DNA of 64,000 bases from the NCBI GenBank assembly GCA_002070355.1, contig MWDC01000002.1, positions 8,814 to 72,813 of the forward strand. The letters are read 5' to 3'. This DNA is from Parcubacteria group bacterium ADurb.Bin159. Lineage in GTDB: Bacteria > Patescibacteriota > Patescibacteriia > UBA2591 > MWDC01. Both the position numbers and the translations under genes were made by a program. Positions 16,595 to 58,799 of this stretch are shown in pieces (position 1 is the first letter of the stretch; each line of letters begins with the position of its first letter). A model generated the notes under the pieces. That model searched no databases, was not told where the DNA came from, and saw only the letters and a program-made list of their open reading frames with translations.

Positions 16595-16679
16595 TTATCC
16601 ACAGAAAGGACTTGTTTTGTGGTAAAAAATGGTGTATAATGTAAGCGCTGTGGAAATCTGTGGATAAAAGTGGGGATAA
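16595..16679. promoter_or_regulatory. DnaA-box cluster upstream of mraZ: TTATCCACA (16595-16603) plus three inverted boxes phased about 10-11 bp apart (tgtggaaat 16649-16657, tgtggataa 16659-16667, tggggataa 16671-16679)
   Basis: One box is a perfect match and one is the exact reverse complement of the TTATCCACA consensus; the other two have 1-2 mismatches. An extended -10 box tgtgtataat (16631-16640) lies between them. Confidence 0.6.
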
Positions 16680-16740: not shown

Positions 16741-17172
16741 ATGTTTATTGGTGAATATCATTATTTAATAGACGATAAAAATAGATTATCTATTCCAGTA
16801 AAATTTCGAAGCTACTTTAATAAAGGAGCAGTAATTACTCGAGGAATAGATAATTGTTTGACTCTTTATCCATTAGTTGAGTGGAAAAAAGTAGCAGAAA
16901 AATTAGTTAATCTTCCCACAAATCAAGCTAAACCACGAGCTTTTGCCCGTTTAATGTTAGCCGGAGCCATGGATGTTAAATTAGATTCTTTGGGCAGAAT
17001 TGTTTTGCCTGATTATTTAAAAAAATACGCTGGGTTAAAAAAAGAAATAGTCATTAGCGGCCTTTATAATAAGTTAGAAATTTGGGATGAGGTAAAATGG
17101 GAAGAAGTAAAAGCAAAAGCCGAATCTTCCAGCATTGACATTGCCGAAACATTAGGAGAAATGGGAGTATGA
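16741..17172 (+). CDS. mraZ: division/cell-wall cluster transcriptional regulator MraZ
   Basis: 143 aa. MFIGEYHYLIDDKNRLSIPVKFR and a second DXXXR-type repeat; it overlaps rsmH by 4 nt. Confidence 0.9.
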   Translation: MFIGEYHYLIDDKNRLSIPVKFRSYFNKGAVITRGIDNCLTLYPLVEWKKVAEKLVNLPTNQAKPRAFARLMLAGAMDVKLDSLGRIVLPDYLKKYAGLKKEIVISGLYNKLEIWDEVKWEEVKAKAESSSIDIAETLGEMGV

Positions 17173-42703: not shown

Positions 42704-43132
42704 ATGGTTGAAGAAAAACAAAAACAAGAAGAAAAAAAAGAGGCAAATGAAGTGCCTTTAAAGTTTCAGAAGATTGTTGAAGAAATAGAAAAATTGAATG
42801 TTTTGGAGCTTAGCGAGTTAGTTAAGGTTCTGGAAAAGAGATTTGATATTTCTCCTATGCCGATAGTAAGCGGAGCGATAGGGGTGGCTTCTGAAGCGCC
42901 AGAGAAGAAAGGTGAAGAACAAACTGTTTTTAATGTGGAATTAGCTGATGCGGGAACGAATAAAATCGGAGTGATTAAAAGCTTAAGAGAAGTTATTCAG
43001 ATTGGTTTAAAAGAAGCTAAAGATTTAGTTGATAATTTACCCAAAGTTGTTAAAGAGGGGGTTAATAAAGAAGAGGCCGAAACATTAAAGAAAAAGTTTG
43101 AAGAAGCGGGGGCGAAAGTGAATTTAATCTGA
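42704..43132 (+). CDS. rplL: 50S ribosomal protein L7/L12
   Basis: The C-terminal domain FNVELADAG..KIGVIKSLREV..GLKEAKDLVDNLPKVVKEGVNKEEAE..KKKFEEAGAKV. Confidence 0.9.
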   Translation: MVEEKQKQEEKKEANEVPLKFQKIVEEIEKLNVLELSELVKVLEKRFDISPMPIVSGAIGVASEAPEKKGEEQTVFNVELADAGTNKIGVIKSLREVIQIGLKEAKDLVDNLPKVVKEGVNKEEAETLKKKFEEAGAKVNLI

Positions 43133-45094
43133 AATTTGATATATTTCTGTTCCGGCAAGCAAGGTTATAACCCCATTTTTTTCTTCTATGCTTTTTAGGT
43201 TGGCAAAAGCAGGATTTTTATATTGGCTTACAAGCTCTCCTTCTTTATTATAAATAATAATTCTTTCTGTTTCTTTATCAGTAAAATAAAGATTATCTGT
43301 TTCAGAATGGGTATAAAGAAGAGCAGCGTTTTCTATTTCAGGGAAAACGTCTTTTTGTTTAAATTCTTTTTGTTCGCCGAGATAAAATTTGCTTATTATC
43401 CCGTCATTTCTTAGTAAATAGATATTGCCATTTATAGCAAAAGAAGCAATATTAGTGAAATTTCTTGGTTGGTTTTCCAATATCCAAGGCGTTCCTTTGG
43501 AAAAACCAATAATTGTTTCGGGGTATTTAAAAATTTGATGGGCTGTTTTGTCTAAAACATAGAGCCTGCCACCGTAAAGAGAAATATCGGAAATTTCAGT
43601 ATTATTTTGAGCTAATTCAATTGTTAGAGGAGTATAAGTTTTAGTTTTTAAATTAAAACGGCCAATATGTTTTGTCTCATCTAAAACCAAAAGATTGTCT
43701 TTATCCCAAGATATTAATTTATCAATTGTTGTTTTACCCTCTAAAGAAGTAGAGTAAAGAACAGATTTTTTGTTTAAAAGATTTATTTGCCAAAGATGAT
43801 TTGTTGTTTTATTGATTACATAAAAATAATCGCCATTCATTAATAAATTTGTTGGATTAAAGTTGATTTCTAAATCTTTAAGGCTAAACAAAGGAGTCAG
43901 ATCAATTGTCTGATATTTAAAGTATTGATTTATTAAAGCAAGCCATTCTTTTTTTAGGTCAGCATATTTTTCTTTTTGTAATTCATTGTTTTGGGGGAAT
44001 TCTTCTAAAATTGTTTCCATTTCTTTTAAAATAGTTTTTATTTCTCCCCCTGTTTGAACTACAGACAATTGTTCTTTTCTAAGATCGAATTCGGTTTGCG
44101 TCTCGGTAAGAAGTTGTTCTTCTTTTTTAATTTGAGAATTCTTTTTTGAGACGCTAATATTTTGAGCGAAAATAATTAAAGCAATGATAATTAAAATAAA
44201 AATAGCTTTTTGAAGAGAGCTTAAATGAGGCAATCGCACCTTTTTATTTTTTAAGGGTTGTTCTATCTTATAACCATTTTCTGGGACAAGATTAGCTAAC
44301 TCTTTTTTGGGCGGTTTTACTTTAACTTCTTTAATCTCTTTAACCTCTTTTTTTTCAGGTTTTAACTGTTCTTCCTTTTTATTTTCCGCTAAAAGTTTTT
44401 TTTCATCTTCTTCCTTATTATTTTTTGTTTCTTTCATTTGAATAATAAGCCCCTCTAAATTAAAATTAAAAGAAGAAGAACGATTTTCCAAAACAGCTTG
44501 AAATTCTAAAGGATTATTTGTTTTAAGCAATTCAGATATTTTATCTTCAGCAAAATAATCAAAGATATTTTCTAAAGTAAAAAACAAGGTATCTCCTTCG
44601 GATAAATTTCCGCTGATTATATTAATAAATTTTTTATCCTTTTCTTTCTCTTTGGGCTCGAGAAATTCAAATTGATTATCAGAAACTAAAAAAATTTGAA
44701 ACCCGCCGAATTTAGAAGAAAATATTTTTTCTTCAACAGCAAGAACTAAGCATAGCTCCATATTCTCAAAATATAATTTTTGAGAACGGAGTATTTCCCT
44801 TTTAAGCCAATCGTTGATTTTATTGAGCAAATTTTCAAAACCATCTTCCGGGGATTTAATTGATTCTATAGGGTTATAATAAATATCTTCTATTTGTATT
44901 AAAATTTTTTTTATAAATTCTTTAATTTCATCCTTTTCGTTTTTTAGGGGAGGGGAAGAAAACCAAAAATTGCTCATTAAATAAATATTGCCAAATTTTT
45001 GGAATTTACCAGTTGGCTCAATAGAGCGAATTAAGGGATAATTTTTCGCTTCAAGATTGTCGTCCCAGCAAAAATATGAGATTTGTGTTTGCAT
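43124..45094 (-). CDS. hypothetical bitopic membrane protein: N-terminal cytoplasmic domain (weak PP2C-like pattern), K/E-rich linker, TM helix, C-terminal beta-propeller-like repeats
   Basis: 656 aa. A TM helix AIFILIIIALIIF at about residue 300. The C-terminal repeats (GRLYVLDKTAHQIFKY, NLYFTDKETERIIIYNKEG) resemble NHL/YVTN blades. LSEGDTLFFTLENIFDY weakly resembles the PP2C GD..SDG motif. Confidence 0.45.
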   Translation of the reverse strand: MQTQISYFCWDDNLEAKNYPLIRSIEPTGKFQKFGNIYLMSNFWFSSPPLKNEKDEIKEFIKKILIQIEDIYYNPIESIKSPEDGFENLLNKINDWLKREILRSQKLYFENMELCLVLAVEEKIFSSKFGGFQIFLVSDNQFEFLEPKEKEKDKKFINIISGNLSEGDTLFFTLENIFDYFAEDKISELLKTNNPLEFQAVLENRSSSFNFNLEGLIIQMKETKNNKEEDEKKLLAENKKEEQLKPEKKEVKEIKEVKVKPPKKELANLVPENGYKIEQPLKNKKVRLPHLSSLQKAIFILIIIALIIFAQNISVSKKNSQIKKEEQLLTETQTEFDLRKEQLSVVQTGGEIKTILKEMETILEEFPQNNELQKEKYADLKKEWLALINQYFKYQTIDLTPLFSLKDLEINFNPTNLLMNGDYFYVINKTTNHLWQINLLNKKSVLYSTSLEGKTTIDKLISWDKDNLLVLDETKHIGRFNLKTKTYTPLTIELAQNNTEISDISLYGGRLYVLDKTAHQIFKYPETIIGFSKGTPWILENQPRNFTNIASFAINGNIYLLRNDGIISKFYLGEQKEFKQKDVFPEIENAALLYTHSETDNLYFTDKETERIIIYNKEGELVSQYKNPAFANLKSIEEKNGVITLLAGTEIYQISD

Positions 45095-49967: not shown

Positions 49968-50034
49968 TTATCCACAATTTATCCACAGTTTATCCACTTC
50001 TTTGATTTGGATTTTTTTTATTTTAGTTTATAAT
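49968..50034 (+). promoter_or_regulatory. oriC-type DnaA-box array (three direct TTATCCACA boxes with 11-bp periodicity: 49968, 49979, 49990), an AT-rich segment, and a dnaA promoter (TTGGAT-N16-TATAAT, 50007-50034) ending 8 nt before the ATG
   Basis: ttatccacaat-ttatccacagt-ttatccact; the -10 box tataat is at 50029-50034. Confidence 0.8.
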
Positions 50035-50042
50035 AAACCAAT

Positions 50043-51434
50043 ATGACAGAAGAAAAAAATAATAAAATAGAAGAAATAAATAAAGAAGAACTTTGGCAAA
50101 GTGTTTTGGGTGAATTAGAAGTTTCTATTTCTCCGGCAAATTTCAAAACCTGGTTTTCTAATACTTTTATTTTACGATTTGAAAATAATGGAGAAACGGT
50201 TGTTATCGGTGTGCCCAATGTTTTTACTGAGCAATGGTTAAGTCAAAAATACCATAAAGCGATATTAGATGCCTTTCAAAACATAACCGATAATAAAATA
50301 AAAGAGATTGTTTATACTATTAAAGCCGCTCTTCCTCCTCAAGAAAGATTTTTGGATAATTTAATAAAAATAAAAGCAAATGATAATGAAGGAACTTTTA
50401 AAACAGATAAACACGGGCTTAATCCTCGTTATACTTTCGAAAATTTTATTGTGGGAAAGGGCAACGAATTAGCCCATGCCGCTGCTATAGCAGTAAGTAA
50501 ACAACCAGGGAAAAAATATAATCCGCTTTTTATTTACGGGGGAGTGGGATTAGGTAAAACTCATCTTCTTCAAGCGATAGGGCATCGTGTTCTAGCTAAA
50601 AATCCTAAAACTAAAGTTCGTTATGTTAATGCCGAGGTTTTTACAAATGAATTTATTGAAGGCATTAGAACTGGTCAAAATGATAATTTTAAAAATAAGT
50701 ATCGTCAACTTGATTTTCTTTTAGTTGATGATATTCAATTTATGGCAGGGAAAGAGAGGACAGAAGAAGAATTTTTTCACACTTTTGATTGGCTTCATCA
50801 AGGAGGCAAACAAATAGTTATTACTTCTGATAGGCCCCCGAAATCTTTACCTGCTCTAGAAAAGAGGATTATTTCCCGATTTGAATGGGGATTAATTTGC
50901 GATATTACTCCTCCTGATTTTGAAACACGTTTGGCTATTTTAAAAACAAAATCAAAAGAAAAGGGATATAAATTAGAAGATGATGTTTTAAATTATTTAG
51001 CTAGTCATATACAAAATAATGTAAGAGAATTGGAAGGAGCGTTGAATAAAATTTTTGCTTGGCATGAATTAAAAGGAGGGCCGATTAATCTTGATGTAGT
51101 AGAAAAAATTATAAAAAGTTTGAATCAAATACAAAAAGGGTCTGTTAAAAGTGATAAAATAATTCAAGAAGTATCAGAGTTTTATAATTTGACGCCTCTT
51201 GATTTGAAAAGCGCTTCTCGAAAAAAAGAATTAGTGATGTCAAGGCAAATAGCTATGTATTTATTAAGAGAAGATTTAAACTTATCTTTTCCTGCTATTG
51301 GAAAAATTATAGGGGGGCGCGATCATTCTACCACTATGCATGGATGGGAAAAGGTAAAAAAAGAAGTTGAAGAAGGGGGAGAAACAAAACAAGATATTGA
51401 TTCTATCAGACAAAGAATTTATACTCATAAATAA
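50043..51434 (+). CDS. dnaA: chromosomal replication initiator DnaA
   Basis: AAA+ Walker A GGVGLGKTHLLQAIG, Walker B LLVDDIQF, and a C-terminal DnaA-box binding HTH (SRQIAMYLLRE..IGKIIGGRDHSTTMH). Confidence 0.95.
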   Translation: MTEEKNNKIEEINKEELWQSVLGELEVSISPANFKTWFSNTFILRFENNGETVVIGVPNVFTEQWLSQKYHKAILDAFQNITDNKIKEIVYTIKAALPPQERFLDNLIKIKANDNEGTFKTDKHGLNPRYTFENFIVGKGNELAHAAAIAVSKQPGKKYNPLFIYGGVGLGKTHLLQAIGHRVLAKNPKTKVRYVNAEVFTNEFIEGIRTGQNDNFKNKYRQLDFLLVDDIQFMAGKERTEEEFFHTFDWLHQGGKQIVITSDRPPKSLPALEKRIISRFEWGLICDITPPDFETRLAILKTKSKEKGYKLEDDVLNYLASHIQNNVRELEGALNKIFAWHELKGGPINLDVVEKIIKSLNQIQKGSVKSDKIIQEVSEFYNLTPLDLKSASRKKELVMSRQIAMYLLREDLNLSFPAIGKIIGGRDHSTTMHGWEKVKKEVEEGGETKQDIDSIRQRIYTHK

Positions 51435-51441
51435 ATTTAAA

Positions 51442-52293
51442 ATGACCAAAAATAAAGAAATTTTTGTTCGAAAAGCTACTGGAGGAAGAGATAAATTTAG
51501 ACCGGAAAAAATAAAAAATACTTGTTTGAGGATTGGGGTAAACCCTGAAACAGCCCAAAAAATCGTTGATAAGGTTTCTGAAGAGATATATAACGGTATT
51601 TCCACTAAAAAAATATTAGAAAAAACACGTTATTATTTAAAAGAAATTTCTCCGGTTTTATCTGATATTTATTCTTTAAAATCAGCTATGTTAGAACTTG
51701 GTCCAGATGGTTTTATTTTTGAAGAATATTGTCGCCGACTTTTAAATTATTACAATATTCCCGCTGTTTGCCCTAAAACTATTTTTGGGTTTTGTATTAG
51801 TCATGAAGTTGATATAATTTTTGAAAATGAAAAAAAATATACTTTTATTGAATGTAAATATCACAATAGGCAAGGAATATATTGCGGTTCAAAGGATATT
51901 CTTTATACTTGGGCAAGATTTTTAGATCTGCAAGATGGATTTAAATCACAAAAAAATTTTTATAATTTTACTTCAGTTTGGCTAATTACCAATACTAAAT
52001 TTTCTGACCATGCTAAACAATTTGGCTTATGTAAAAAGATGGGTCTTTTAGGATGGAATTGGCCAGAAAATGGAGGGTTGGCTTATTATATTAAAAAAGC
52101 AAAATTTTGGCCAATTACCATTTTGTCTAATATTGATAATAACATTCGTAAAATTTTATTTAAAGAAGGAATTATATTAATAAGCGATTTACTTAAACCA
52201 AATTTTACTTTAAAAAACGGTAAAATCAGCCAAAAGAAAATATCTATCATCCAAGAAGAAGCCCAAAAAGTAATGGATTATTTTAAAGAGTAA
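51442..52293 (+). CDS. ATP-cone domain fused to a PD-(D/E)xK (Mrr-like restriction endonuclease fold) domain
   Basis: N-terminus IFVRKATGGRDKFRPEKIKNTCLRIGV is ATP-cone-like, as in NrdR. The C-terminal half has ..FIFEEYCRRLL..HEVDIIFENEKKYTFIECKYH. (hD..ExK). The start is trimmed to MTKNKE to avoid overlapping dnaA. Confidence 0.55.
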   Translation: MTKNKEIFVRKATGGRDKFRPEKIKNTCLRIGVNPETAQKIVDKVSEEIYNGISTKKILEKTRYYLKEISPVLSDIYSLKSAMLELGPDGFIFEEYCRRLLNYYNIPAVCPKTIFGFCISHEVDIIFENEKKYTFIECKYHNRQGIYCGSKDILYTWARFLDLQDGFKSQKNFYNFTSVWLITNTKFSDHAKQFGLCKKMGLLGWNWPENGGLAYYIKKAKFWPITILSNIDNNIRKILFKEGIILISDLLKPNFTLKNGKISQKKISIIQEEAQKVMDYFKE

Positions 52294-52312
52294 AATAAAT
52301 ATATTTTTTATT

Positions 52313-53983
52313 ATGCCTCAAAACAACACATCTCCCACTTCCGAAGAAATGGAAAAAAAATTAAAAGATAAACTTAGCGGTCTTGCTTTAGAAAAGGAAG
52401 AAGAAAACGCTAGAAATATGGCTTACAGCTTAGGATTAGATTATATTAATTTATATAACTTTCCTATTGCCCCGGAAGCCTTAAGGTTAATTTCCGAAGA
52501 AGAGGCGAGACAATTTAATACTGTTTGTTTTTGGTTGGGAGAGAAAGAGGCGAAATTAGCTACAACCTTAATAGAAAAATCAAAAATAAGAGAATTCCAA
52601 AAAATTTTTGAAGAAAGGGCGGGGGTATCTACTCGTCTTTTTTTTGTTTCTCAAAATAGTTTAAAATATGCTCTTGATTTTTATAAAACGCTTCCCAAAA
52701 TTTATCAGCCATCTAAGGGGGTTCAAATTACTTCTGTTGATTTAGCACGTTTTGAAGATAAAATAAAAACCTTTAAGGATTTAAACGAAGAGATAAAAAA
52801 TGTTTCTATTTCAGATATCGTAACCTTAATTGTTGCTTCAGCTATTAATTCCCGCGCTTCAGATATTCATATAGAAGCAGAAGAAAAGGAAATTAAAGTT
52901 CGATTTAGAGTTGATGGAGTTTTAGTGGATGTAGCTGATATAGATAAAGATTTATGGAAAAGTATTATTTCGCGTATAAAATTACTCTCCGCTCTTAAAA
53001 TTAACATTAATGACCAACCCCAAGATGGCCGTTTTACCATAAATTTGCCGAACGATAAAGTAGATGTAAGGGTTTCTACTTTGCCGACGGCATTTGGAGA
53101 AAGCGTAGTAATGAGGTTGCTTCGTTCTTCTTCTGTTGGTTTGCAATTTGAAGATTTAGGTTTAATAGACAGGGCGTTTGACATACTATCCCGGGCAATT
53201 AAGAGGCCGAATGGTATGATTATTACCACTGGTCCGACTGGTTCAGGGAAAACGACTACTCTTTACGCTATTTTAAATAAAATTAATCGGCCAGAAATAA
53301 AAATTCTTACTTTAGAAGACCCTATTGAATATCACTTAGAAGGAATTAATCAAAGTCAAGTAGATAAAGAAAAAGATTATACTTTTGCTAAAGGCCTTCG
53401 CTCACTTATGCGGCAAGATCCTGATGTAATAATGATTGGAGAAATTAGGGACGGGGAAACAGCAGAAATAGCTATTCAAGCAGCTTTAACCGGCCATTTA
53501 GTTATTTCCACTCTTCATACTAATGACGCCGCTGGAGCAATTCCCAGATTTATTGCTTTAGGAGCAAAACCATTTCTTTTAGCCCCGGCTTTAAATGTGA
53601 TTATTGCTCAAAGATTAGTTCGCCGAATTTGCCCTGAATGCAAGAAAGAAACAAAATTATCTCCTGACCTTCTCAAAAGAGTTTCTGCTGATTTGAATAA
53701 AATTCCGCAGAAAAACAATCTTTCTTTAGAAAAACTTAAATTTTATAAAGGAGAGGGATGTTCTCATTGTCAAGGATTAGGATATCATGGCCGTATCGGT
53801 ATTTATGAGGTTTTAGAAATTACTTCAGAAGCTGAAAAGATTATCAACGAAGGAGATGTTTCTGAATATAAAATAAAAGAATTCGCCGCCAGCCAAGGGA
53901 TGGTTCCTATGGTGGGCGATGGTTTATTAAAAGCCATTAATGGAATTACTACTGTAGACGAAGTATATCGTGTCATCGAATAA
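52313..53983 (+). CDS. type II secretion / type IV pilus assembly ATPase (GspE/PilB family)
   Basis: Walker A GPTGSGKTTT, Asp/His boxes, Walker B DPDVIMIGEIRD, and the tetracysteine CPECKK..CSHCQGLGY. Confidence 0.9.
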   Translation: MPQNNTSPTSEEMEKKLKDKLSGLALEKEEENARNMAYSLGLDYINLYNFPIAPEALRLISEEEARQFNTVCFWLGEKEAKLATTLIEKSKIREFQKIFEERAGVSTRLFFVSQNSLKYALDFYKTLPKIYQPSKGVQITSVDLARFEDKIKTFKDLNEEIKNVSISDIVTLIVASAINSRASDIHIEAEEKEIKVRFRVDGVLVDVADIDKDLWKSIISRIKLLSALKININDQPQDGRFTINLPNDKVDVRVSTLPTAFGESVVMRLLRSSSVGLQFEDLGLIDRAFDILSRAIKRPNGMIITTGPTGSGKTTTLYAILNKINRPEIKILTLEDPIEYHLEGINQSQVDKEKDYTFAKGLRSLMRQDPDVIMIGEIRDGETAEIAIQAALTGHLVISTLHTNDAAGAIPRFIALGAKPFLLAPALNVIIAQRLVRRICPECKKETKLSPDLLKRVSADLNKIPQKNNLSLEKLKFYKGEGCSHCQGLGYHGRIGIYEVLEITSEAEKIINEGDVSEYKIKEFAASQGMVPMVGDGLLKAINGITTVDEVYRVIE

Positions 53984-55444: not shown

Positions 55445-56575
55445 ATGTTAAAAATCGCTCATATTGTTTGCGCTTTTCCCCCTTATCAGGGAGGGATGGG
55501 TAATGTTTGTTTTAATCAAGCCACATATTTGGCTAAAATTGGCCATCAAGTTACTGTTTTTGCTCCTCAAATAAACAATCAAGAGTCATTTTCTTTGGGA
55601 TTTAAGCAGCAAAAATTAATATCTCTTTTGACCTTAGGCAACGCCAGTTTAATTTTCCCTCAAATTTCTATTTTAAACAAATTTGATATTTTACATTTTC
55701 ATTATCCTTTTATTGGTTTAGGGGAGCAAATACTTTTTTTAAAAAAAATAGGGCTTATTAAAATTCCTTTAATTATTCAATATCATATGGATTTAATCGG
55801 GGAGGGGAATAGAAAATTATTTTTTGAAATTTATAATAAAAAAACTTTACCCTTATTGCTTTGCGCAGATAAAATTTTAGTAAGCTCTGAAGATTATTTG
55901 CTGCATTCAAAAATAAAGAAATATTTTCTAAAAGCAAAAAATAAATTTGAAATTTTACCTTTAGGGGTAGATGAAAATAAATTTTATCCTTCTTTTGAAG
56001 CAACTTCTTCAGAATATCAAAACATTCTTTTTGTTGGCGCTTTAGATAAAGCCCATTATTTCAAGGGAGTTGATGTTTTGATTAAGGCGTTTAAAAAAGT
56101 AAATAATATTTTACCGCAAAGCCGTTTAATTATTGTGGGCAAAGGAGATTTAAGAAATCAATTTATTGATTTAGCTAAAAAATTAAACATTAGAGACAAA
56201 ATTGAATTTGCTGATAATGTTCTAAAAGAAGAATTGCCTCTTTATTATCAAAAAACGGCTGTTTTTGTTCTTCCCTCCACTACTCGTTCTGAGGCTTTTG
56301 GTTTAGTTACTTTGGAAGCAATGGCTAGCGGTTTGCCAGTTATTGTTTCTAATCTTCCCGGACCTCGTTCTTTAGTTGATAATAATGGTTTTCTAGTAAA
56401 ACCCGGCGATTCAGATGATTTGTCTGCCAAAATAATTAAAATTTTACAAAACGATAAGCTAAAAAAAGAGTTTGGCAACCAATCGCGGCAATTAGTTAAT
56501 AAGTATTATTGTTGGTCTAAAATAGTTCCTCGTTTATCAACTATTTATGAAAATATTCTTTCAGCAAAATTGTGA
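55445..56575 (+). CDS. family 4 (GT-B) glycosyltransferase
   Basis: The C-terminal EAFGLVTLEAMASGLPVIVSN motif (EX7E-type). Confidence 0.85.
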   Translation: MLKIAHIVCAFPPYQGGMGNVCFNQATYLAKIGHQVTVFAPQINNQESFSLGFKQQKLISLLTLGNASLIFPQISILNKFDILHFHYPFIGLGEQILFLKKIGLIKIPLIIQYHMDLIGEGNRKLFFEIYNKKTLPLLLCADKILVSSEDYLLHSKIKKYFLKAKNKFEILPLGVDENKFYPSFEATSSEYQNILFVGALDKAHYFKGVDVLIKAFKKVNNILPQSRLIIVGKGDLRNQFIDLAKKLNIRDKIEFADNVLKEELPLYYQKTAVFVLPSTTRSEAFGLVTLEAMASGLPVIVSNLPGPRSLVDNNGFLVKPGDSDDLSAKIIKILQNDKLKKEFGNQSRQLVNKYYCWSKIVPRLSTIYENILSAKL

Positions 56576-58799
56576 AAATTTGATTTTAACTATAAAAAAA
56601 AATAAATATTTTCTAGGAACAATTTTAGAAGTAATTATTCCCCTTTTTTGGTTTTTAAATTTTACCAACGGAAAAAACATATTAATTAATGTTTTTTTAT
56701 TTATTAGTTATTTTGCTCTTAATGGATTTTATCTTGGTTTAATTTTAAAAAAGTATTTGAAAATAAGATATTTTTTTATTTTAGGTATTTTAGCTATTTT
56801 TTATTTAATTAGCTTTGCTCTATCTATACCTATTGTTTTTTATAAAATTGCGCCTTTATATTTATTTATTATTTTAGCTATTATCGGGATTATTCTTTCT
56901 TTAAGCGTTCAATATTTATTTAAGGATAAGCAGTACGACGGACCTAGCCGCAACACGAATTCCGGAAATAGCAACCCTATTCCTCTTTGGTGGAAAATTA
57001 GTTTTTTAATTCTTTTTTTGGCTTCTTTGTTTGTTCTTTTACATTCCCGTACTTCCAGCATAATTCGTTCTCCTTGGCAAGAGATTCATCCGCTTTATAT
57101 TTACGGCTATATAGGGCTAATAATTTTAGTCCTTTATTTAATTAAATTAAAACCAAAATTTAAGATTTTTATTTTTTTTGTTATTTTGCTTTCTTTATTA
57201 GCTCATAGTTATGTAATTTTTCCTTATGAAGCTGGTTTTGGCGGAGATAAATGGCGACATTTAGGAGCAGAGCAATGGCTAATGGAAGGCAATATATATT
57301 CTCCCTCTCTTTTTGGCGAAAAAATTTCTTATAAACAATTGGGGCCACTTAAAATACCTGAAGTGTTTTTAATTGGCAATAAAACTTCTTATGCCAATCT
57401 TTGGGCGGGAGTTATTAATTTATCTTGGTTATTAAATATATCTCCTTTTTGGATTGATATTTTTTTATGTTTTATTTTATCCAGTATTTTTTTGCCATTT
57501 TTACTTTACGAATTAGGGAAAAAAGTATTTAAAAAAAGAGAAGCAATTTATTTTTTTATTTTGGCTCCTCTTTTTTTCTTTCCCTTTCAATTATATGGCT
57601 CTTTAACTGTGCCCACATTTTTTGGTTTTATTCTTTTTTGTTTTTCTTTGCTTTTGCTTTTTTCTTTATATCAATTTGCTTGCCGAGAAAAGTTGTCTTT
57701 AAAATATTTTTTCTTAGCGCTAATTTTACCCTGTCTTTTTCTTTATTTTAATTATGTTCTGTATCTCATTCTTTATTTAATGGTTTTTATTTTATTTATA
57801 TTTTTTTATCGGCTTTTACCTCTTTTAAATCGTTCTCTTTCAACCATCTTATTGATAATTTTAATTTGTTTTATGGCAATCGTCTTTCCTTGTTTAGATG
57901 TAGCAAGCGGTTATTCACAATTTAAATCAGAAAAATTATCTGGTACAACAATTAAAAATTTCGGTCATAATTTATTATTTTCTTTGCCTATATTTTATCG
58001 GGAAAATGGGTTTGAACAAGACAGCTGGCTTTATAGCGGGATAGAAGAAAATTTATCTTCATCTATTTTTAGTCAAATTATTAAATGGAACTATTTTTTT
58101 ACCCCTATTTTTTGGCTGATTACCATTATCGGTTTTTTTTCATTTTATTTTTGGCAATCAAAAAAAGAAATAGGTTTAATTTTTAGTTTATTAATAATTA
58201 TTTTGATATCACAATTTATAGGTTCTTCTTTTTTAGAAGGAAGCTGTCTTTTTAGCAAACGTTTAATTTTAGTTTTTTCTTTTTTCTTATTTTTCTCTTT
58301 TGCCGCTGGTTTAAGTTGGGTTGTTTTTAAAAAAGAAAAACTTTTTATATTTCTTATAATTTTTTTAGGTCTTTTTTCGGGAAGCAGTTATATCTCCGGA
58401 CCGAAGTTTGAAGCAGTAACCGGCAATGAATTAAAGGCGGTTTCTTATATCTGGCAAAATCTTAAATCTGAAGATGGGCCATATTGCGTTATAGGCAATA
58501 CTTGGCCACTTTTGGCTTTGGAAGGAGTAAGTGGCAGGCAAATTATTGCCGGCGGTTTTCCTGTTTATCAAGAATATAAACAACCGGAAAGAGTGCAGTT
58601 ATTTGAAAATTTAAATAGCTATCCCCATATAAATGATTTTAATAAAGCATTAGAAATAACCGGTGCTTCTTCTTGTTATTTTATGACCGAAGAACGTTGG
58701 ATAAGAGGAGGGAAAAAGGATATTGTTTTTAATAATTTAAAGACAATAATCGGTGAGCCTTTTATTCTTGGCGATATTTATATTTGGCATTATCAATAA
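56547..58799 (+). CDS. large polytopic membrane protein (about 14 TM helices plus a C-terminal ~180-aa soluble domain); possible GT-C-type glycosyltransferase
   Basis: 750 aa, with the topology of PMT/ArnT/STT3-like enzymes and a position between glycosyltransferases and the O-antigen ligase. No WWDYG or DE motif was found. Confidence 0.4.
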   Translation: MKIFFQQNCENLILTIKKNKYFLGTILEVIIPLFWFLNFTNGKNILINVFLFISYFALNGFYLGLILKKYLKIRYFFILGILAIFYLISFALSIPIVFYKIAPLYLFIILAIIGIILSLSVQYLFKDKQYDGPSRNTNSGNSNPIPLWWKISFLILFLASLFVLLHSRTSSIIRSPWQEIHPLYIYGYIGLIILVLYLIKLKPKFKIFIFFVILLSLLAHSYVIFPYEAGFGGDKWRHLGAEQWLMEGNIYSPSLFGEKISYKQLGPLKIPEVFLIGNKTSYANLWAGVINLSWLLNISPFWIDIFLCFILSSIFLPFLLYELGKKVFKKREAIYFFILAPLFFFPFQLYGSLTVPTFFGFILFCFSLLLLFSLYQFACREKLSLKYFFLALILPCLFLYFNYVLYLILYLMVFILFIFFYRLLPLLNRSLSTILLIILICFMAIVFPCLDVASGYSQFKSEKLSGTTIKNFGHNLLFSLPIFYRENGFEQDSWLYSGIEENLSSSIFSQIIKWNYFFTPIFWLITIIGFFSFYFWQSKKEIGLIFSLLIIILISQFIGSSFLEGSCLFSKRLILVFSFFLFFSFAAGLSWVVFKKEKLFIFLIIFLGLFSGSSYISGPKFEAVTGNELKAVSYIWQNLKSEDGPYCVIGNTWPLLALEGVSGRQIIAGGFPVYQEYKQPERVQLFENLNSYPHINDFNKALEITGASSCYFMTEERWIRGGKKDIVFNNLKTIIGEPFILGDIYIWHYQ

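What the first reader, a model, noticed from the sequence alone, without database searches (positions are those of the whole stretch)
51442..52293. ATP-cone domain fused to an Mrr-like PD-(D/E)xK nuclease fold, immediately after dnaA
The N-terminal ~90 aa match the ATP-cone, the nucleotide-sensing module of NrdR and RNR. The C-terminal ~190 aa carry a D..ExK pattern (HEVDIIF..TFIECKYH) in a restriction-endonuclease-like context. A nucleotide-regulated nuclease next to the replication initiator is unusual. It could be a defence nuclease, or a regulator responsive to dNTP or ATP pools. There is no cognate methyltransferase nearby.
Basis: partly seen in the sequence, partly recalled or inferred. 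Interest (0 to 1): 0.6.

Follow-up and report, generated by a model that had tools for sequence, protein, structure and literature searches.

The report
ATP-cone-gated DNA nuclease beside dnaA
The gene after dnaA encodes a three-part protein: an ATP/dATP-sensing ATP-cone, an intact restriction-endonuclease-fold nuclease and a small DNA-binding domain. It belongs to a very large, uncharacterised family whose neighbours point to nucleotide and nucleic-acid housekeeping rather than phage defence.

Summary
ORF 51442-52293 (+, 283 aa) starts 7 nt after the dnaA stop. It encodes an N-terminal ATP-cone, an AF1548/Mrr-type PD-(D/E)xK nuclease (PDB 1Y88, E=1e-27) and a C-terminal Rad51-N-like helix-hairpin-helix (HhH) domain. 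The AlphaFold2 model has pLDDT 96.6.

The nuclease residues E94, D124, E137 and K139 are conserved in 263-264 of 264 relatives. The ATP-cone residues K11 and K23 are conserved in 252-254.

The architecture is not rare. At least 936 clusters (50% identity), 598 or more species genomes and more than 7,500 Bacteroidota clusters carry it. Pipelines name it "ATP cone domain-containing protein" or "restriction endonuclease". I found no functional study.

The dnaA-gene-pilB order holds only in one Patescibacteria clade (13-16 loci).

- **DPANN archaea:** the gene sits beside ribonucleotide reductase, NrdR and thioredoxin reductase.
- **Bacteroidota and Chlamydiota:** it leads an operon with a beta-CASP nuclease, an AMP/thymidine-phosphorylase-like enzyme and PRPP synthase.

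No methyltransferase or defence gene recurs nearby. There is no PADLOC hit and no phage copy.

Best reading: an adenine-nucleotide-gated DNase that serves nucleotide economy. The enzymology and the role are inferred, not shown. I rate it a new variant of a known kind, of moderate interest.

The parts
49968..49998 (+). Three direct DnaA-box repeats (TTATCCACA, TTATCCACA, TTATCCACT) with an 11-bp period, 45 nt upstream of the dnaA ATG. This is the likely control region of the dnaA-led gene string.
   Evidence: Window-wide, 28 one-mismatch matches against 15.8 expected. These three are tandem.
50043..51434 (+). dnaA (463 aa), the upstream neighbour. Probably co-transcribed with the finding.
   Evidence: Pfam DnaA_N, Bac_DnaA and Bac_DnaA_C. 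There is a 7-nt gap to the next ATG and no + strand terminator-like site between them.
51442..52293 (+). The finding: a 283-aa ATP-cone / PD-(D/E)xK nuclease / HhH protein, referred to here as ACN.
51460..51696 (+). ATP-cone domain (residues ~7-85): a beta-hairpin (8-10, 16-18) plus helices 21-30, 35-47, 55-69 and 71-84. K11, F19, K23 and T55 are conserved.
   Evidence: Pfam PF03477 on residues 8-61 (21.7 bits) and in 55 of 58 relatives. Foldseek matches NrdR and RNR cones. Alignment A4. Conservation counts.
51697..51723 (+). Near-invariant junction motif L-G-P-x-G-F-x-F-E (residues 86-94), ending in the first catalytic-site glutamate, E94. It is the candidate coupling element between sensor and nuclease.
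   Evidence: L86 249, G87 258, P88 252, G90 258, F93 264 and E94 263 of 264. The coupling role is inferred.
51703..52107 (+). PD-(D/E)xK nuclease core (residues ~88-222). Catalytic residues are E94, E122 and D124 (51805-51813), and E137 and K139 (51850-51858). R159, D162 and N184 are further invariant residues.
   Evidence: 1Y88 E=1e-27 and profile 5.4e-60. Mrr_cat in 54 of 58 relatives. Secondary structure. Conservation. The AF1548 triad was predicted in PMC1821046.
52108..52290 (+). AF1548-like C-terminal helical domain (residues ~223-283), similar to the Rad51/RadA N-terminal HhH domain. Presumed DNA-binding module.
   Evidence: PF22357 E=1.2e-7. Domain model pLDDT 90.8. Foldseek RAD51 N-terminal domain: TM 0.72, rmsd 2.0 A over 63 columns, prob 1.00 but E=0.04.
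52313..53983 (+). Type II/IV secretion-family ATPase (PilB-like, 556 aa), the downstream neighbour. It follows the finding in all 18 loci of the same clade.
   Evidence: Pfam T2SSE 1.6e-129. Synteny.

Best explanation
**What is shown.** The gene encodes a soluble three-domain enzyme: an N-terminal ATP-cone, an AF1548/Mrr-type PD-(D/E)xK nuclease with a complete metal-binding and catalytic set (E94, E122/D124, E137-x-K139), and a C-terminal HhH-like domain. The model packs the three into one rigid unit.

**What is inferred about how it works.**
- The HhH domain holds DNA without sequence specificity, and the nuclease cuts it in a Mg2+-dependent way.
- The ATP-cone reads adenine-nucleotide pools (ATP against dATP, possibly ADP or AMP). 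As in ribonucleotide reductase and NrdR, it would switch the protein between active and inactive oligomers.
- The near-invariant LGPxGFxFE junction runs straight from the cone into catalytic E94. It is the likely coupling element.

**Inferred role.** Gene neighbourhoods suggest a housekeeping nuclease in nucleotide economy. It would open up DNA (or nucleic acid generally) for turnover or salvage when the nucleotide or energy state calls for it.
- In Bacteroidota and Chlamydiota it is the first gene of an operon with a beta-CASP nuclease, an archaeal-type AMP/thymidine phosphorylase and PRPP synthase, often next to PPK2.
- In DPANN archaea it sits beside ribonucleotide reductase, NrdR and thioredoxin reductase.
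- In this Patescibacteria lineage, a group reported to depend on nucleotide salvage, it is packed between dnaA and a PilB-type pilus ATPase and is probably co-transcribed with them.

The dnaA adjacency is lineage-specific. It need not mean direct action on the replication initiator.
For: **Architecture and active site.**. D124, E137 and K139 are kept in 264 of 264 sequences, E94 in 263 and E122 in 261. 261 of 264 carry the cone. K11 is kept in 254, K23 in 252, and T55 in 231 (plus 30 Ser).

**Structure.** pLDDT 96.6 and pTM 0.92. Foldseek gives 1Y88 at 2.6e-13, and NrdR/RNR cones at prob 1.00. The C-terminal domain resembles the Rad51 N-terminal domain.

**ATP-cone logic in known systems.**
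- Competitive ATP/dATP binding turns RNR off (PMC4390871).
- NrdR binds DNA only when loaded with both dATP and ATP (abstract of 10.1101/2024.05.27.596032).

**Neighbourhoods.**
- ACN, beta-CASP, TP-family and PRS form one string in Pontibacter and Criblamydia plasmids, L079 and L095.
- ACN plus beta-CASP occurs in four more Bacteroidota loci.
- A TP-family gene lies directly upstream in two Bathyarchaeia loci.
- RNR lies within 6 kb in 6 of 48 archaeal species loci plus L086. Class II and class III enzymes both occur, with RNR identities of about 28-54%.
- NrdR-RNR-glutaredoxin follow directly in L034. TrxB is near in 12-13 loci.
- A trio of adjacent genes with the same PGAP names (MBL fold metallo-hydrolase, ribose-phosphate pyrophosphokinase, thymidine phosphorylase family) is in the core microoxia-induced proteome of Bradyrhizobium (PMC6515984). 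Homology to the Bacteroidota trio was not checked.
- CPR and DPANN reliance on nucleotide salvage and an AMP-phosphorylase/RuBisCO route is described in PMC5113843 and PMC6389311.

**Operon signals in the window.** Gaps are 7 and 19 nt, with no + strand terminator-like site between the three genes.

**Synteny.** The dnaA-ACN-pilB trio persists in 16-18 loci while the genes outside it change.
Against: - No biochemical data exist for any member, AF1548 included.
- The window protein's own ATP-cone score is below Pfam's threshold.
- The family has K-A-S-G where RNR and NrdR have K-(R/K)-D-G. Ligand identity and even ligand binding are therefore unproven.
- Neighbourhood links are lineage-specific and partly inherited by descent, so the counts overstate independence.
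- Many loci have unrelated neighbours, such as membrane proteins, malic enzyme and PFOR.
- In this window there is no RNR, NrdR, phosphorylase or beta-CASP gene. The salvage role is therefore extrapolated from other phyla.
- The substrate (DNA or RNA, double-stranded or branched) is not established. The HhH match has a weak E-value of 0.04.
Confidence: 0.5

Rival explanations
1. Replication/repair nuclease. It would be a structure-specific endonuclease for forks, flaps or Holliday junctions, in the manner of Hjc, NucS or XPF/Hef (nuclease plus HhH). Its activity would be licensed by the dATP/ATP ratio, for example to process stalled forks when dNTPs run out. That would explain the position next to dnaA or RNR.
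For: - Weak profile similarity to Hjc (13.5 bits). Hjc, UPF0102 and NERD hits occur in 5-13 of 58 relatives.
- The HhH-like C-terminal domain resembles the Rad51 N-terminal domain.
- dnaA is adjacent in 16 loci.
- NucS lies directly upstream in L044 and L054, and Ogg upstream in L016.
- RNR and NrdR are adjacent in archaeal loci.
Against: - Hjc scores are far below threshold (13.5 against 21.1 bits).
- No recombination partner such as RuvAB or RadA recurs.
- The strongest operon link is to catabolic and salvage enzymes (beta-CASP, TP-family, PRS, PPK2), not repair genes.
- The gene is absent from most bacteria, which argues against a core replication role.
Confidence: 0.2
2. Defence or abortive-infection nuclease. 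It would be a stand-alone effector that senses a phage-induced change in ATP or dNTP pools through the ATP-cone and then degrades DNA. Can2/Card1, NucC and Cap4 are analogous, being switched on by signalling nucleotides.
For: - The sensor-plus-PD-(D/E)xK layout is shared with ligand-activated defence nucleases. Foldseek and HMM similarity to the Can2 and Cdn1 nuclease domains is weak (E 5e-3 to 0.12).
- A weak GapS1 hit (17 bits).
- A near-identical strain contig (L001) carries an N6-adenine methyltransferase ORF joined at this locus.
Against: - 0 PADLOC hits.
- The GapS1 score is 17 against a cut-off of 320.
- None in 50,697 phage records, none in IMG/VR by pattern, and 2 of 72,556 plasmids.
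- No recurrent defence or methyltransferase neighbour in 90+ loci.
- Synteny with housekeeping genes is stable across deep divergence (DnaA 49-76% identity), unlike mobile defence islands.
- L001 is a single 3.2-kb contig and may be a chimeric assembly.
Confidence: 0.15
3. Non-catalytic regulator. It would be an NrdR-like, nucleotide-sensing DNA-binding protein that uses the nuclease fold and HhH domain only to bind operators of nrd or replication genes.
For: - It shares with NrdR an ATP-cone joined to a DNA-binding part.
- It shares NrdR-like genomic company, namely RNR genes and replication genes.
Against: - Every catalytic residue is invariant in 261-264 of 264 sequences, which is unexpected for a mere binding scaffold.
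- Canonical NrdR (Zn-ribbon plus ATP-cone) is encoded right beside it in L034 and L082, so it does not replace NrdR.
- No shared palindrome was seen upstream of the adjacent RNR genes.
Confidence: 0.05

Closest known systems
AF1548 of Archaeoglobus fulgidus (PDB 1Y88), a structural-genomics protein of unknown function. Pfam Mrr_cat (PF04471) plus AF1548-like_C (PF22357).
   Same: Clear homologue over residues 97-278 (E=1e-27; profile 5.4e-60; Foldseek TM 0.85 on the target). It has the same D...ExK triad, predicted as D38/E51/K53 in PMC1821046, and the same C-terminal helical domain.
   Different: AF1548 has no ATP-cone. The match starts about 20 residues into the chain. It has Gln where this family has H121. 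Its function is also unknown, so the homology names a fold and not a role.
ATP-cone of ribonucleotide reductases and of the repressor NrdR (PF03477)
   Same: - Same fold (Foldseek prob 1.00, rmsd 1.5-1.9 A).
- Same invariant K...F...K core.
- Same position as an N-terminal add-on to a catalytic body, as in RNR.
- Genomic company of RNR and replication genes.
   Different: - It is attached to a nuclease, not to a reductase or a Zn-ribbon.
- The motif is K-A-S-G instead of K-(R/K)-D-G.
- The window protein scores below the Pfam cut-off.
- Ligand and oligomeric switching are untested.
Ligand-activated PD-(D/E)xK nucleases of CRISPR/CBASS signalling (Can2/Card1, Cdn1, Cap4, NucC)
   Same: It works on the same plan: a small-nucleotide sensor domain fused to, or controlling, a restriction-endonuclease-fold nuclease. 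There is weak structural and profile similarity to the nuclease domain.
   Different: - The sensor is an ATP-cone, not CARF or SAVED.
- No cyclase, CRISPR or CBASS genes lie nearby.
- The context is housekeeping.
- It is not a member of those families.
Mrr / type IV restriction endonucleases
   Same: The catalytic domain belongs to the same Pfam family in most relatives (54 of 58). NCBI pipelines name relatives "restriction endonuclease".
   Different: - It has no N-terminal modified-DNA reader domain.
- It has no restriction-modification or defence context.
- The window protein's own Mrr_cat score is insignificant (12.1 bits, E=0.22).
XPF/Mus81/Hef-type nucleases (nuclease domain followed by HhH2). 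Comparison made from general knowledge.
   Same: The order of modules is the same: a restriction-endonuclease-like nuclease followed by an HhH-type DNA-binding domain.
   Different: No sequence or profile match was seen here. There is only one small HhH-like unit. This is a resemblance of layout only.

Membership tests
ATP-cone domain (PF03477) | Profile match above the curated threshold | tested here: inconclusive
   The window protein scores 21.7 bits against a cut-off of 25.8 (E=3e-4). 55 of 58 relatives match at E<=0.01, with a best E of 6.6e-10. The family profile hits NrdR chains at E~0.009.
ATP-cone domain (PF03477) | Fold: a beta-hairpin capping a four-helix bundle, superposable on RNR/NrdR cones | tested here: met
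   Model strands 8-10 and 16-18 and helices 21-30, 35-47, 55-69 and 71-77. Foldseek prob 1.00, rmsd 1.5-1.9 A over 81-85 residues to NrdR (9a6n, 7p37, 9gex) and RNR.
ATP-cone domain (PF03477) | Conserved nucleotide-contact residues (K in the first strand, K at the start of helix 1, T/S before helix 3) | tested here: met
   K11, F19 and K23 are invariant in the alignment with NrdR and RNR cones. Across the family K11 is kept in 254, K23 in 252 and T55 in 231 (plus 30 Ser) of 264. The second basic residue and the Asp of K(R/K)DG are replaced by A and S.
ATP-cone domain (PF03477) | Binds ATP/dATP and changes oligomeric state | not testable with these tools
   Needs ITC or DSF and SEC-MALS or mass photometry on purified protein.
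PD-(D/E)xK nuclease, AF1548/Mrr_cat branch | Homology to a member with a solved restriction-endonuclease-like fold | tested here: met
   1Y88 E=1e-27, profile 5.4e-60, Foldseek 2.6e-13 with TM 0.85.
PD-(D/E)xK nuclease, AF1548/Mrr_cat branch | Catalytic signature: E on helix 1, D on strand 2, (D/E)xK on strand 3, within an alpha-beta-beta-beta-alpha-beta core | tested here: met
   E94 on helix 89-103; D124 at the start of strand 125-129; E137 and K139 on strand 132-139; helix 150-168; strand 176-183. Conserved in 263-264 of 264.
PD-(D/E)xK nuclease, AF1548/Mrr_cat branch | Metal-dependent phosphodiester cleavage | not testable with these tools
   No member has been assayed, as far as the searched literature shows.
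Type IV (Mrr-like) restriction or R-M system | N-terminal modified-DNA recognition domain, and/or a cognate methyltransferase or defence-island context | tested here: not met
   The N-terminus is an ATP-cone. No methyltransferase lies within 5 kb. No recurrent methyltransferase or defence neighbour in other loci. PADLOC gives 0 hits.
NrdR repressor | N-terminal Zn-ribbon (two CxxC pairs) followed by an ATP-cone | tested here: not met
   No Zn_ribbon_NrdR match. The cone is N-terminal and followed by a nuclease. Genuine NrdR (PF22811 plus PF03477) is encoded beside the homologue in L034 and L082.
Holliday junction resolvase Hjc | Profile match above threshold | tested here: not met
   PF01870 13.5 bits against 21.1; NF040854 13.6 against 70.
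CARF/SAVED-type ligand-activated nucleases (Can2/Card1/Cap4) | CARF or SAVED sensor domain, and an associated cyclic-oligonucleotide synthase | tested here: not met
   No such domains in the protein or in neighbours. Only weak similarity to the nuclease domain.

The most novel reading that the evidence does not exclude
The ATP-cone is so far known as the overall-activity switch of ribonucleotide reductases and of NrdR. In this family it would have been recruited to gate a DNA endonuclease that is the entry step of a conserved nucleic-acid-to-nucleotide route.

- In Bacteroidota and Chlamydiota that route would be the ACN, beta-CASP, AMP/thymidine-phosphorylase-like and PRPP-synthase operon, set in hypoxia and energy-stress islands.
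- In DPANN archaea the gene would work alongside RNR, NrdR and TrxB.
- In Patescibacteria it would sit between dnaA and a pilus ATPase.

One adenylate/dATP signal would then coordinate dNTP synthesis (RNR), its transcription (NrdR) and DNA breakdown or salvage (this nuclease). In ultra-small symbionts the enzyme would help turn scavenged DNA into building blocks for replication.
Probability: 0.3. Interest if true: 0.7.

Novelty: new variant of a known kind. Interest (0 to 1): 0.5.

Why it matters
If the inference holds, this family would be the first ATP-cone-regulated enzyme outside ribonucleotide reduction. It would extend a classic allosteric module to nucleic-acid degradation.

It would also assign a function to several things at once:
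- a structural-genomics orphan (AF1548);
- thousands of proteins annotated as "restriction endonuclease", "ATPase" or "Holliday junction resolvase";
- the first gene of an operon whose other members appear to be microoxia-induced in Bradyrhizobium, going by annotation names.

For CPR bacteria and DPANN archaea, which are reported to live on scavenged nucleotides, it offers a concrete, testable control point between nucleotide supply and DNA replication.

The hypothesis is cheap to test. The protein is small and soluble-looking, is predicted with very high confidence, and occurs in culturable Bacteroidota.

Tried and rejected
- **Defence system.** PADLOC scan (0 hits), phage records (0), IMG/VR pattern scan (0), plasmids (2 hits, both in metabolic operons). 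Rejected as the leading reading.
- **NrdR paralogue or analogue.** No Zn-ribbon. It co-occurs with real NrdR. A look for shared palindromes upstream of four adjacent RNR genes found nothing common.
- **Zn site from C118/H121/C138/H141.** Rejected. C138 is replaced by A, V, I or L in 35 of 264 sequences, and C118 by S or A.
- **Origin of replication at dnaA.** Cumulative GC skew rises monotonically through the window with no minimum near 50 kb. The position "at the origin" is therefore not supported by skew. Only the promoter-proximal DnaA boxes are seen.
- **Second cluster of DnaA-box-like sites at 16595-16679.** It lies upstream of mraZ and reads as GTGG-N6 direct repeats, more likely MraZ boxes.
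- **Other ATP-cone, RNR, beta-CASP, TP or PRS genes in the window.** None found.
- **Promoter and terminator scans around the gene.** Counts were no better than in shuffled sequence.
- **Literature.** Searches for ATP-cone with nuclease, restriction endonuclease, Mrr, REase or Patescibacteria found no study of this architecture.
Full report
**1. What is in the sequence**

dnaA (50043-51434) carries the Pfam DnaA_N, Bac_DnaA and Bac_DnaA_C domains. It stops 7 nt before the ATG. A PilB-like T2SSE ATPase (52313-53983, E=1.6e-129) starts 19 nt after the stop.

There is no + strand terminator-like site between the three genes. Promoter-like matches are no more frequent than in shuffled sequence. 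Co-transcription is therefore likely but only inferred.

Three tandem DnaA boxes with an 11-bp period lie at 49968-49998, just upstream of dnaA.

The window has about 31% G+C, and its genes lie almost all on one strand. The closest relatives of this protein and of its DnaA come from Parcubacteria/Patescibacteria assemblies.

**2. Domain anatomy**

Pfam on the single protein gives:

| Family | Residues | Score | Curated cut-off |
|---|---|---|---|
| AF1548-like_C | 224-278 | E=1.2e-7 | passed |
| ATP-cone | 8-61 | 21.7 bits | 25.8 bits, not reached |
| Mrr_cat, Hjc, DUF234 | - | faint | not reached |

Against PDB sequences there is one strong hit, AF1548 (1Y88), at E=1e-27 over residues 97-278. 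AF1548 is a structural-genomics protein. The GOS paper predicted it to be a restriction-endonuclease-fold enzyme with catalytic D38, E51 and K53 (PMC1821046). Those residues align with D124, E137 and K139 here.

A 58-sequence alignment (A1) sharpens everything:
- The family profile hits 1Y88 at 5.4e-60, and NrdR and class III RNR ATP-cones at about 0.01.
- Scanned individually, 55 of 58 members match ATP-cone, 54 of 58 match Mrr_cat and 45 of 58 match AF1548-like_C.

AlphaFold2 with this alignment gives pLDDT 96.6 and pTM 0.92. That implies one rigid three-domain body. Its elements are:
- a beta-hairpin plus helical bundle (residues 8-84);
- an alpha-beta-beta-beta-alpha-beta core (helix 89-103; strands ~114-121, 125-129 and 132-139; helix 150-168; strand 176-183);
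- a small helical C-terminal domain.

Foldseek against the PDB returns three groups of matches:
- 1Y88 (E=2.6e-13, TM 0.85 on the target);
- a long list of NrdR and RNR ATP-cones (prob 1.00, rmsd 1.5-1.9 A over 81-85 residues);
- weaker matches to the nuclease domains of Can2 and Cdn1.

The C-terminal 64 residues, modelled alone (pLDDT 90.8), are most similar to the HhH-containing N-terminal domain of RAD51/RadA (TM 0.72, rmsd 2.0 A, prob 1.00, E=0.04) and to 1Y88 itself. I read this as a DNA-binding HhH-type module. The weak E-value is a caveat.

**3. Conservation**

Counts come from 264 family sequences.

| Group | Residue | Kept (of 264) |
|---|---|---|
| Catalytic and invariant | D124, E137, K139, D162, F93, P224 | 264 |
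| Catalytic | E94 | 263 |
| Catalytic | E122 | 261 |
| Nuclease core | N184 | 263 |
| Nuclease core | R159 | 259 |
| Nuclease core | H121 | 252 |
| ATP-cone | K11 | 254 |
| ATP-cone | K23 | 252 |
| ATP-cone | G14 | 248 |
| ATP-cone | F19 | 239 |
| ATP-cone | T55 | 231, plus 30 Ser |

The cone is present in 261 of 264 sequences.

K11, F19 and K23 are invariant, but the family has K-A-S-G where the others have K-(R/K)-D-G.

The junction L86-G-P-x-G-F-x-F-E94 is nearly invariant and runs directly from the cone into the first catalytic glutamate.

I draw three conclusions:
- The nuclease is under selection as an enzyme.
- The cone is an obligatory part of it.
- The cone is a divergent subtype whose ligand is not certain.

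**4. How common it is**

- An exhaustive HMMER search of 1.84 billion cluster representatives finds 936 at E<=1e-3 and 316 at E<=1e-30. Nearly all of the 150 best listed are 265-295 aa and matched end to end.
- A search from a Pontibacter member finds at least 7,522 clusters (90% identity) at E<=1e-10.
- Hosts include DPANN archaea (Aenigmatarchaeota, Woesearchaeota, Nanoarchaeota, Altiarchaeota), Hadarchaeota, Bathyarchaeia, Patescibacteria, many Bacteroidota (Chitinophaga, Pontibacter, Flavobacterium, Cyclobacterium, Sporocytophaga) and a Chlamydiota plasmid.
- Source names are "ATP cone domain-containing protein", "restriction endonuclease", "ATPase" and "Holliday junction resolvase".

The architecture is therefore catalogued, but I found no paper that studies it.

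**5. Genomic company**

I called ORFs in 84-95 loci, clustered the neighbours and annotated recurrent ones.

(a) *Patescibacteria clade of the window.*
- dnaA, this gene and pilB lie in that order in 16-18 loci. That includes 13-14 of the 80 species genomes.
- DnaA identity to the window is 49-76%, PilB 54-71%, and the nuclease about 38-64%.
- Genes outside the trio differ between subclades. One has GAPDH and a small membrane protein upstream; the other has rpmF-like, nusB and rnc genes on the opposite strand.
- Other Patescibacteria with the gene lack this arrangement.

(b) *DPANN and other archaea.*
- An RNR gene lies within 6 kb in 6 of 48 archaeal species loci, plus the marine lineage L086-88.
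- L086 has ACN followed 122 nt later by an ATP-cone RNR, with a divergent T2SSE ATPase upstream.
- L034 has ACN, NrdR, RNR and glutaredoxin in one string. L082 has ACN, then NrdR and RNR. L024 has ACN, RNR and TrxB.
- L033 has a class III NrdD divergent across 181 nt, and L009 also has NrdD nearby.
- Thioredoxin reductase lies 0.3-3.5 kb downstream on the same strand in 11-13 loci.
- With one or two RNR genes per roughly 1-Mb genome, I would expect about one such case among 48. These loci are not phylogenetically independent, so I call this suggestive only.
- Directly adjacent same-strand genes elsewhere include an AMP/thymidine-phosphorylase-family gene (Bathyarchaeia L050, L066), NucS (L044, L054), Ogg (L016), LOG and RpiB (L078), and PPK2 (L056).

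(c) *Bacteroidota and Chlamydiota.*
- The only two plasmid hits, Pontibacter actiniarum and Criblamydia sequanensis, both show a tight operon.
- Its order is ACN, MBL-fold beta-CASP hydrolase, thymidine-phosphorylase-family protein (TIGR02645 at 589 bits; AMP_phos at 480, below its 535 cut-off), then ribose-phosphate diphosphokinase.
- The same string occurs in L079 and in a Cyclobacterium contig, where PPK2 and a P-type ATPase follow.
- ACN plus beta-CASP occurs in four more loci.
- In Criblamydia the operon is embedded among phosphoketolase, glycogen phosphorylase and acetate kinase.
- Universal stress proteins, PPK2 and P-type ATPases recur around the gene in Bacteroidota.
- In Bradyrhizobium diazoefficiens three adjacent genes with the same annotation names belong to the core microoxia-induced proteome and transcriptome: bll3115 (MBL fold metallo-hydrolase), bll3116 (ribose-phosphate pyrophosphokinase) and bll3117 (thymidine phosphorylase family). 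This is Table 2 of PMC6515984. I did not test homology to the Bacteroidota trio.

(d) *What is absent.*
- No methyltransferase or known defence gene recurs.
- PADLOC gives no hit.
- There is no relative in 50,697 phage records or, by pattern, in IMG/VR.

**6. Interpretation**

*Shown:*
- the three-domain architecture;
- an intact and strongly conserved PD-(D/E)xK active site;
- a conserved ATP-cone;
- a very wide, mostly chromosomal distribution with lineage-stable synteny;
- repeated proximity to genes of dNTP synthesis and nucleotide or nucleic-acid turnover.

*Inferred from the established behaviour of ATP-cones.* Competitive ATP/dATP binding switches RNR off (PMC4390871). The nucleotide loading of NrdR decides which oligomer forms and whether it binds DNA (abstract of 10.1101/2024.05.27.596032). 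By analogy, this nuclease would be gated by adenine nucleotides, probably through a change of oligomeric state.

*Inferred from context.* Its role is in nucleotide economy, either opening nucleic acid for salvage or catabolism or trimming DNA in step with dNTP supply. It is not restriction or defence. For Patescibacteria and DPANN archaea this fits their reported dependence on nucleotide salvage (PMC5113843 and PMC6389311). The window itself holds none of the salvage enzymes. The neighbour pilB is only a hint towards DNA uptake.

The dnaA adjacency is real and conserved in one clade. By itself it is compatible with simple operon inheritance.

*Rivals.* I rank a dATP-licensed structure-specific repair or replication nuclease second, a stand-alone nucleotide-sensing defence nuclease third, and a non-catalytic NrdR-like regulator last.

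**7. Novelty and score**

The protein is an ordinary member of a large family that databases already delineate, so the sequence feature itself is not new. The function is unassigned.

A sensor domain controlling a restriction-fold nuclease is a known design (Can2/Card1, Cap4, NucC). An ATP-cone as that sensor, in a housekeeping nucleotide-metabolism setting, would be a new variant. It would also be the first ATP-cone-controlled enzyme outside ribonucleotide reduction.

Interest is moderate (0.5). The hypothesis is specific and easily testable, and it touches CPR/DPANN biology. Every functional step is still inference.

Noticed in passing
L001 1-1640 against window 51817 onward (JGI sample 3300009664, protein P0004): A 3.2-kb contig is 98.7% identical to window 51817-53410. 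Upstream of codon 126 of this gene, between catalytic D124 and E137, it carries an N6-adenine methyltransferase/Eco57I-like ORF fused in frame, giving a 491-aa product. It is either a strain variant in which an R-M gene disrupted this nuclease, or a chimeric assembly joined at an A/T-rich stretch.
   Followed up: partly
window 16595-16679: Two perfect and one near-perfect 'DnaA boxes' lie in the 213-nt gap upstream of mraZ (16741-17172; the dcw cluster follows). They read as three GTGG-N6 direct repeats (GTGGAAATCT GTGGATAAAA GTGGGGATAA). They are more likely MraZ operator repeats than an origin.
   Followed up: partly
window 1-64000 (composition), dnaA at 50043: Cumulative GC skew rises almost monotonically across all 64 kb, and nearly all genes are on the + strand. 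There is no skew minimum at dnaA, so the replication origin is not evident next to dnaA in this window despite the three DnaA boxes at 49968-49998.
   Followed up: no
L034 6975-7430 and L082 7297-7785: Canonical NrdR genes (Zn_ribbon_NrdR plus ATP-cone) sit directly upstream of class II RNR in assemblies labelled archaeal (an uncultured archaeon and a Woesearchaeota MAG). NrdR is generally regarded as bacterial. This suggests transfer into DPANN archaea, or mis-binned contigs.
   Followed up: partly
L091 (Pontibacter plasmid NZ_CP021236), L092 (Criblamydia plasmid NZ_LK031773), L079, L095: A conserved operon (ATP-cone nuclease, beta-CASP MBL hydrolase, archaeal-type thymidine/AMP-phosphorylase-like protein, PRPP synthase, with or without PPK2 and a P-type ATPase) is shared by Bacteroidota and a Chlamydiota plasmid. 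It is flanked by phosphoketolase, glycogen phosphorylase and acetate kinase in Criblamydia. Three adjacent genes with the same annotation names are microoxia-induced in Bradyrhizobium (PMC6515984).
   Followed up: partly
window 51367-51441 (protein P0001): The public gene call for this protein (298 aa) starts upstream of the ATG and overlaps the end of dnaA. Homologues start at the ATG at 51442, so the database start is probably over-extended.
   Followed up: yes
L006, L008, L010, L012, L017, L021, L023, L032, L047, L063 (record titles): Several species-representative MAGs are titled 'uncultured Gammaproteobacteria bacterium'. Most of them carry the dnaA-nuclease-pilB trio, with DnaA 49-58% identical to this low-GC, Patescibacteria-like window. 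The taxonomic labels look wrong.
   Followed up: no
window 43124-45094 (-) and 56547-58799 (+): Two large ORFs (655 and 750 aa) have no Pfam match at E<=1e-5. The second is a highly hydrophobic multi-pass membrane protein that overlaps the end of the GT4 glycosyltransferase gene by 29 nt.
   Followed up: no
L086-L088 3487-5532 (-), and L080: A T2SSE-family ATPase also lies next to the nuclease in a marine DPANN-like archaeon (divergent, about 0.5 kb away) and 2.4 kb away in a Hadesarchaea contig. This echoes the pilB adjacency in Patescibacteria. It may be coincidence, since archaea carry several such ATPases.
   Followed up: partly
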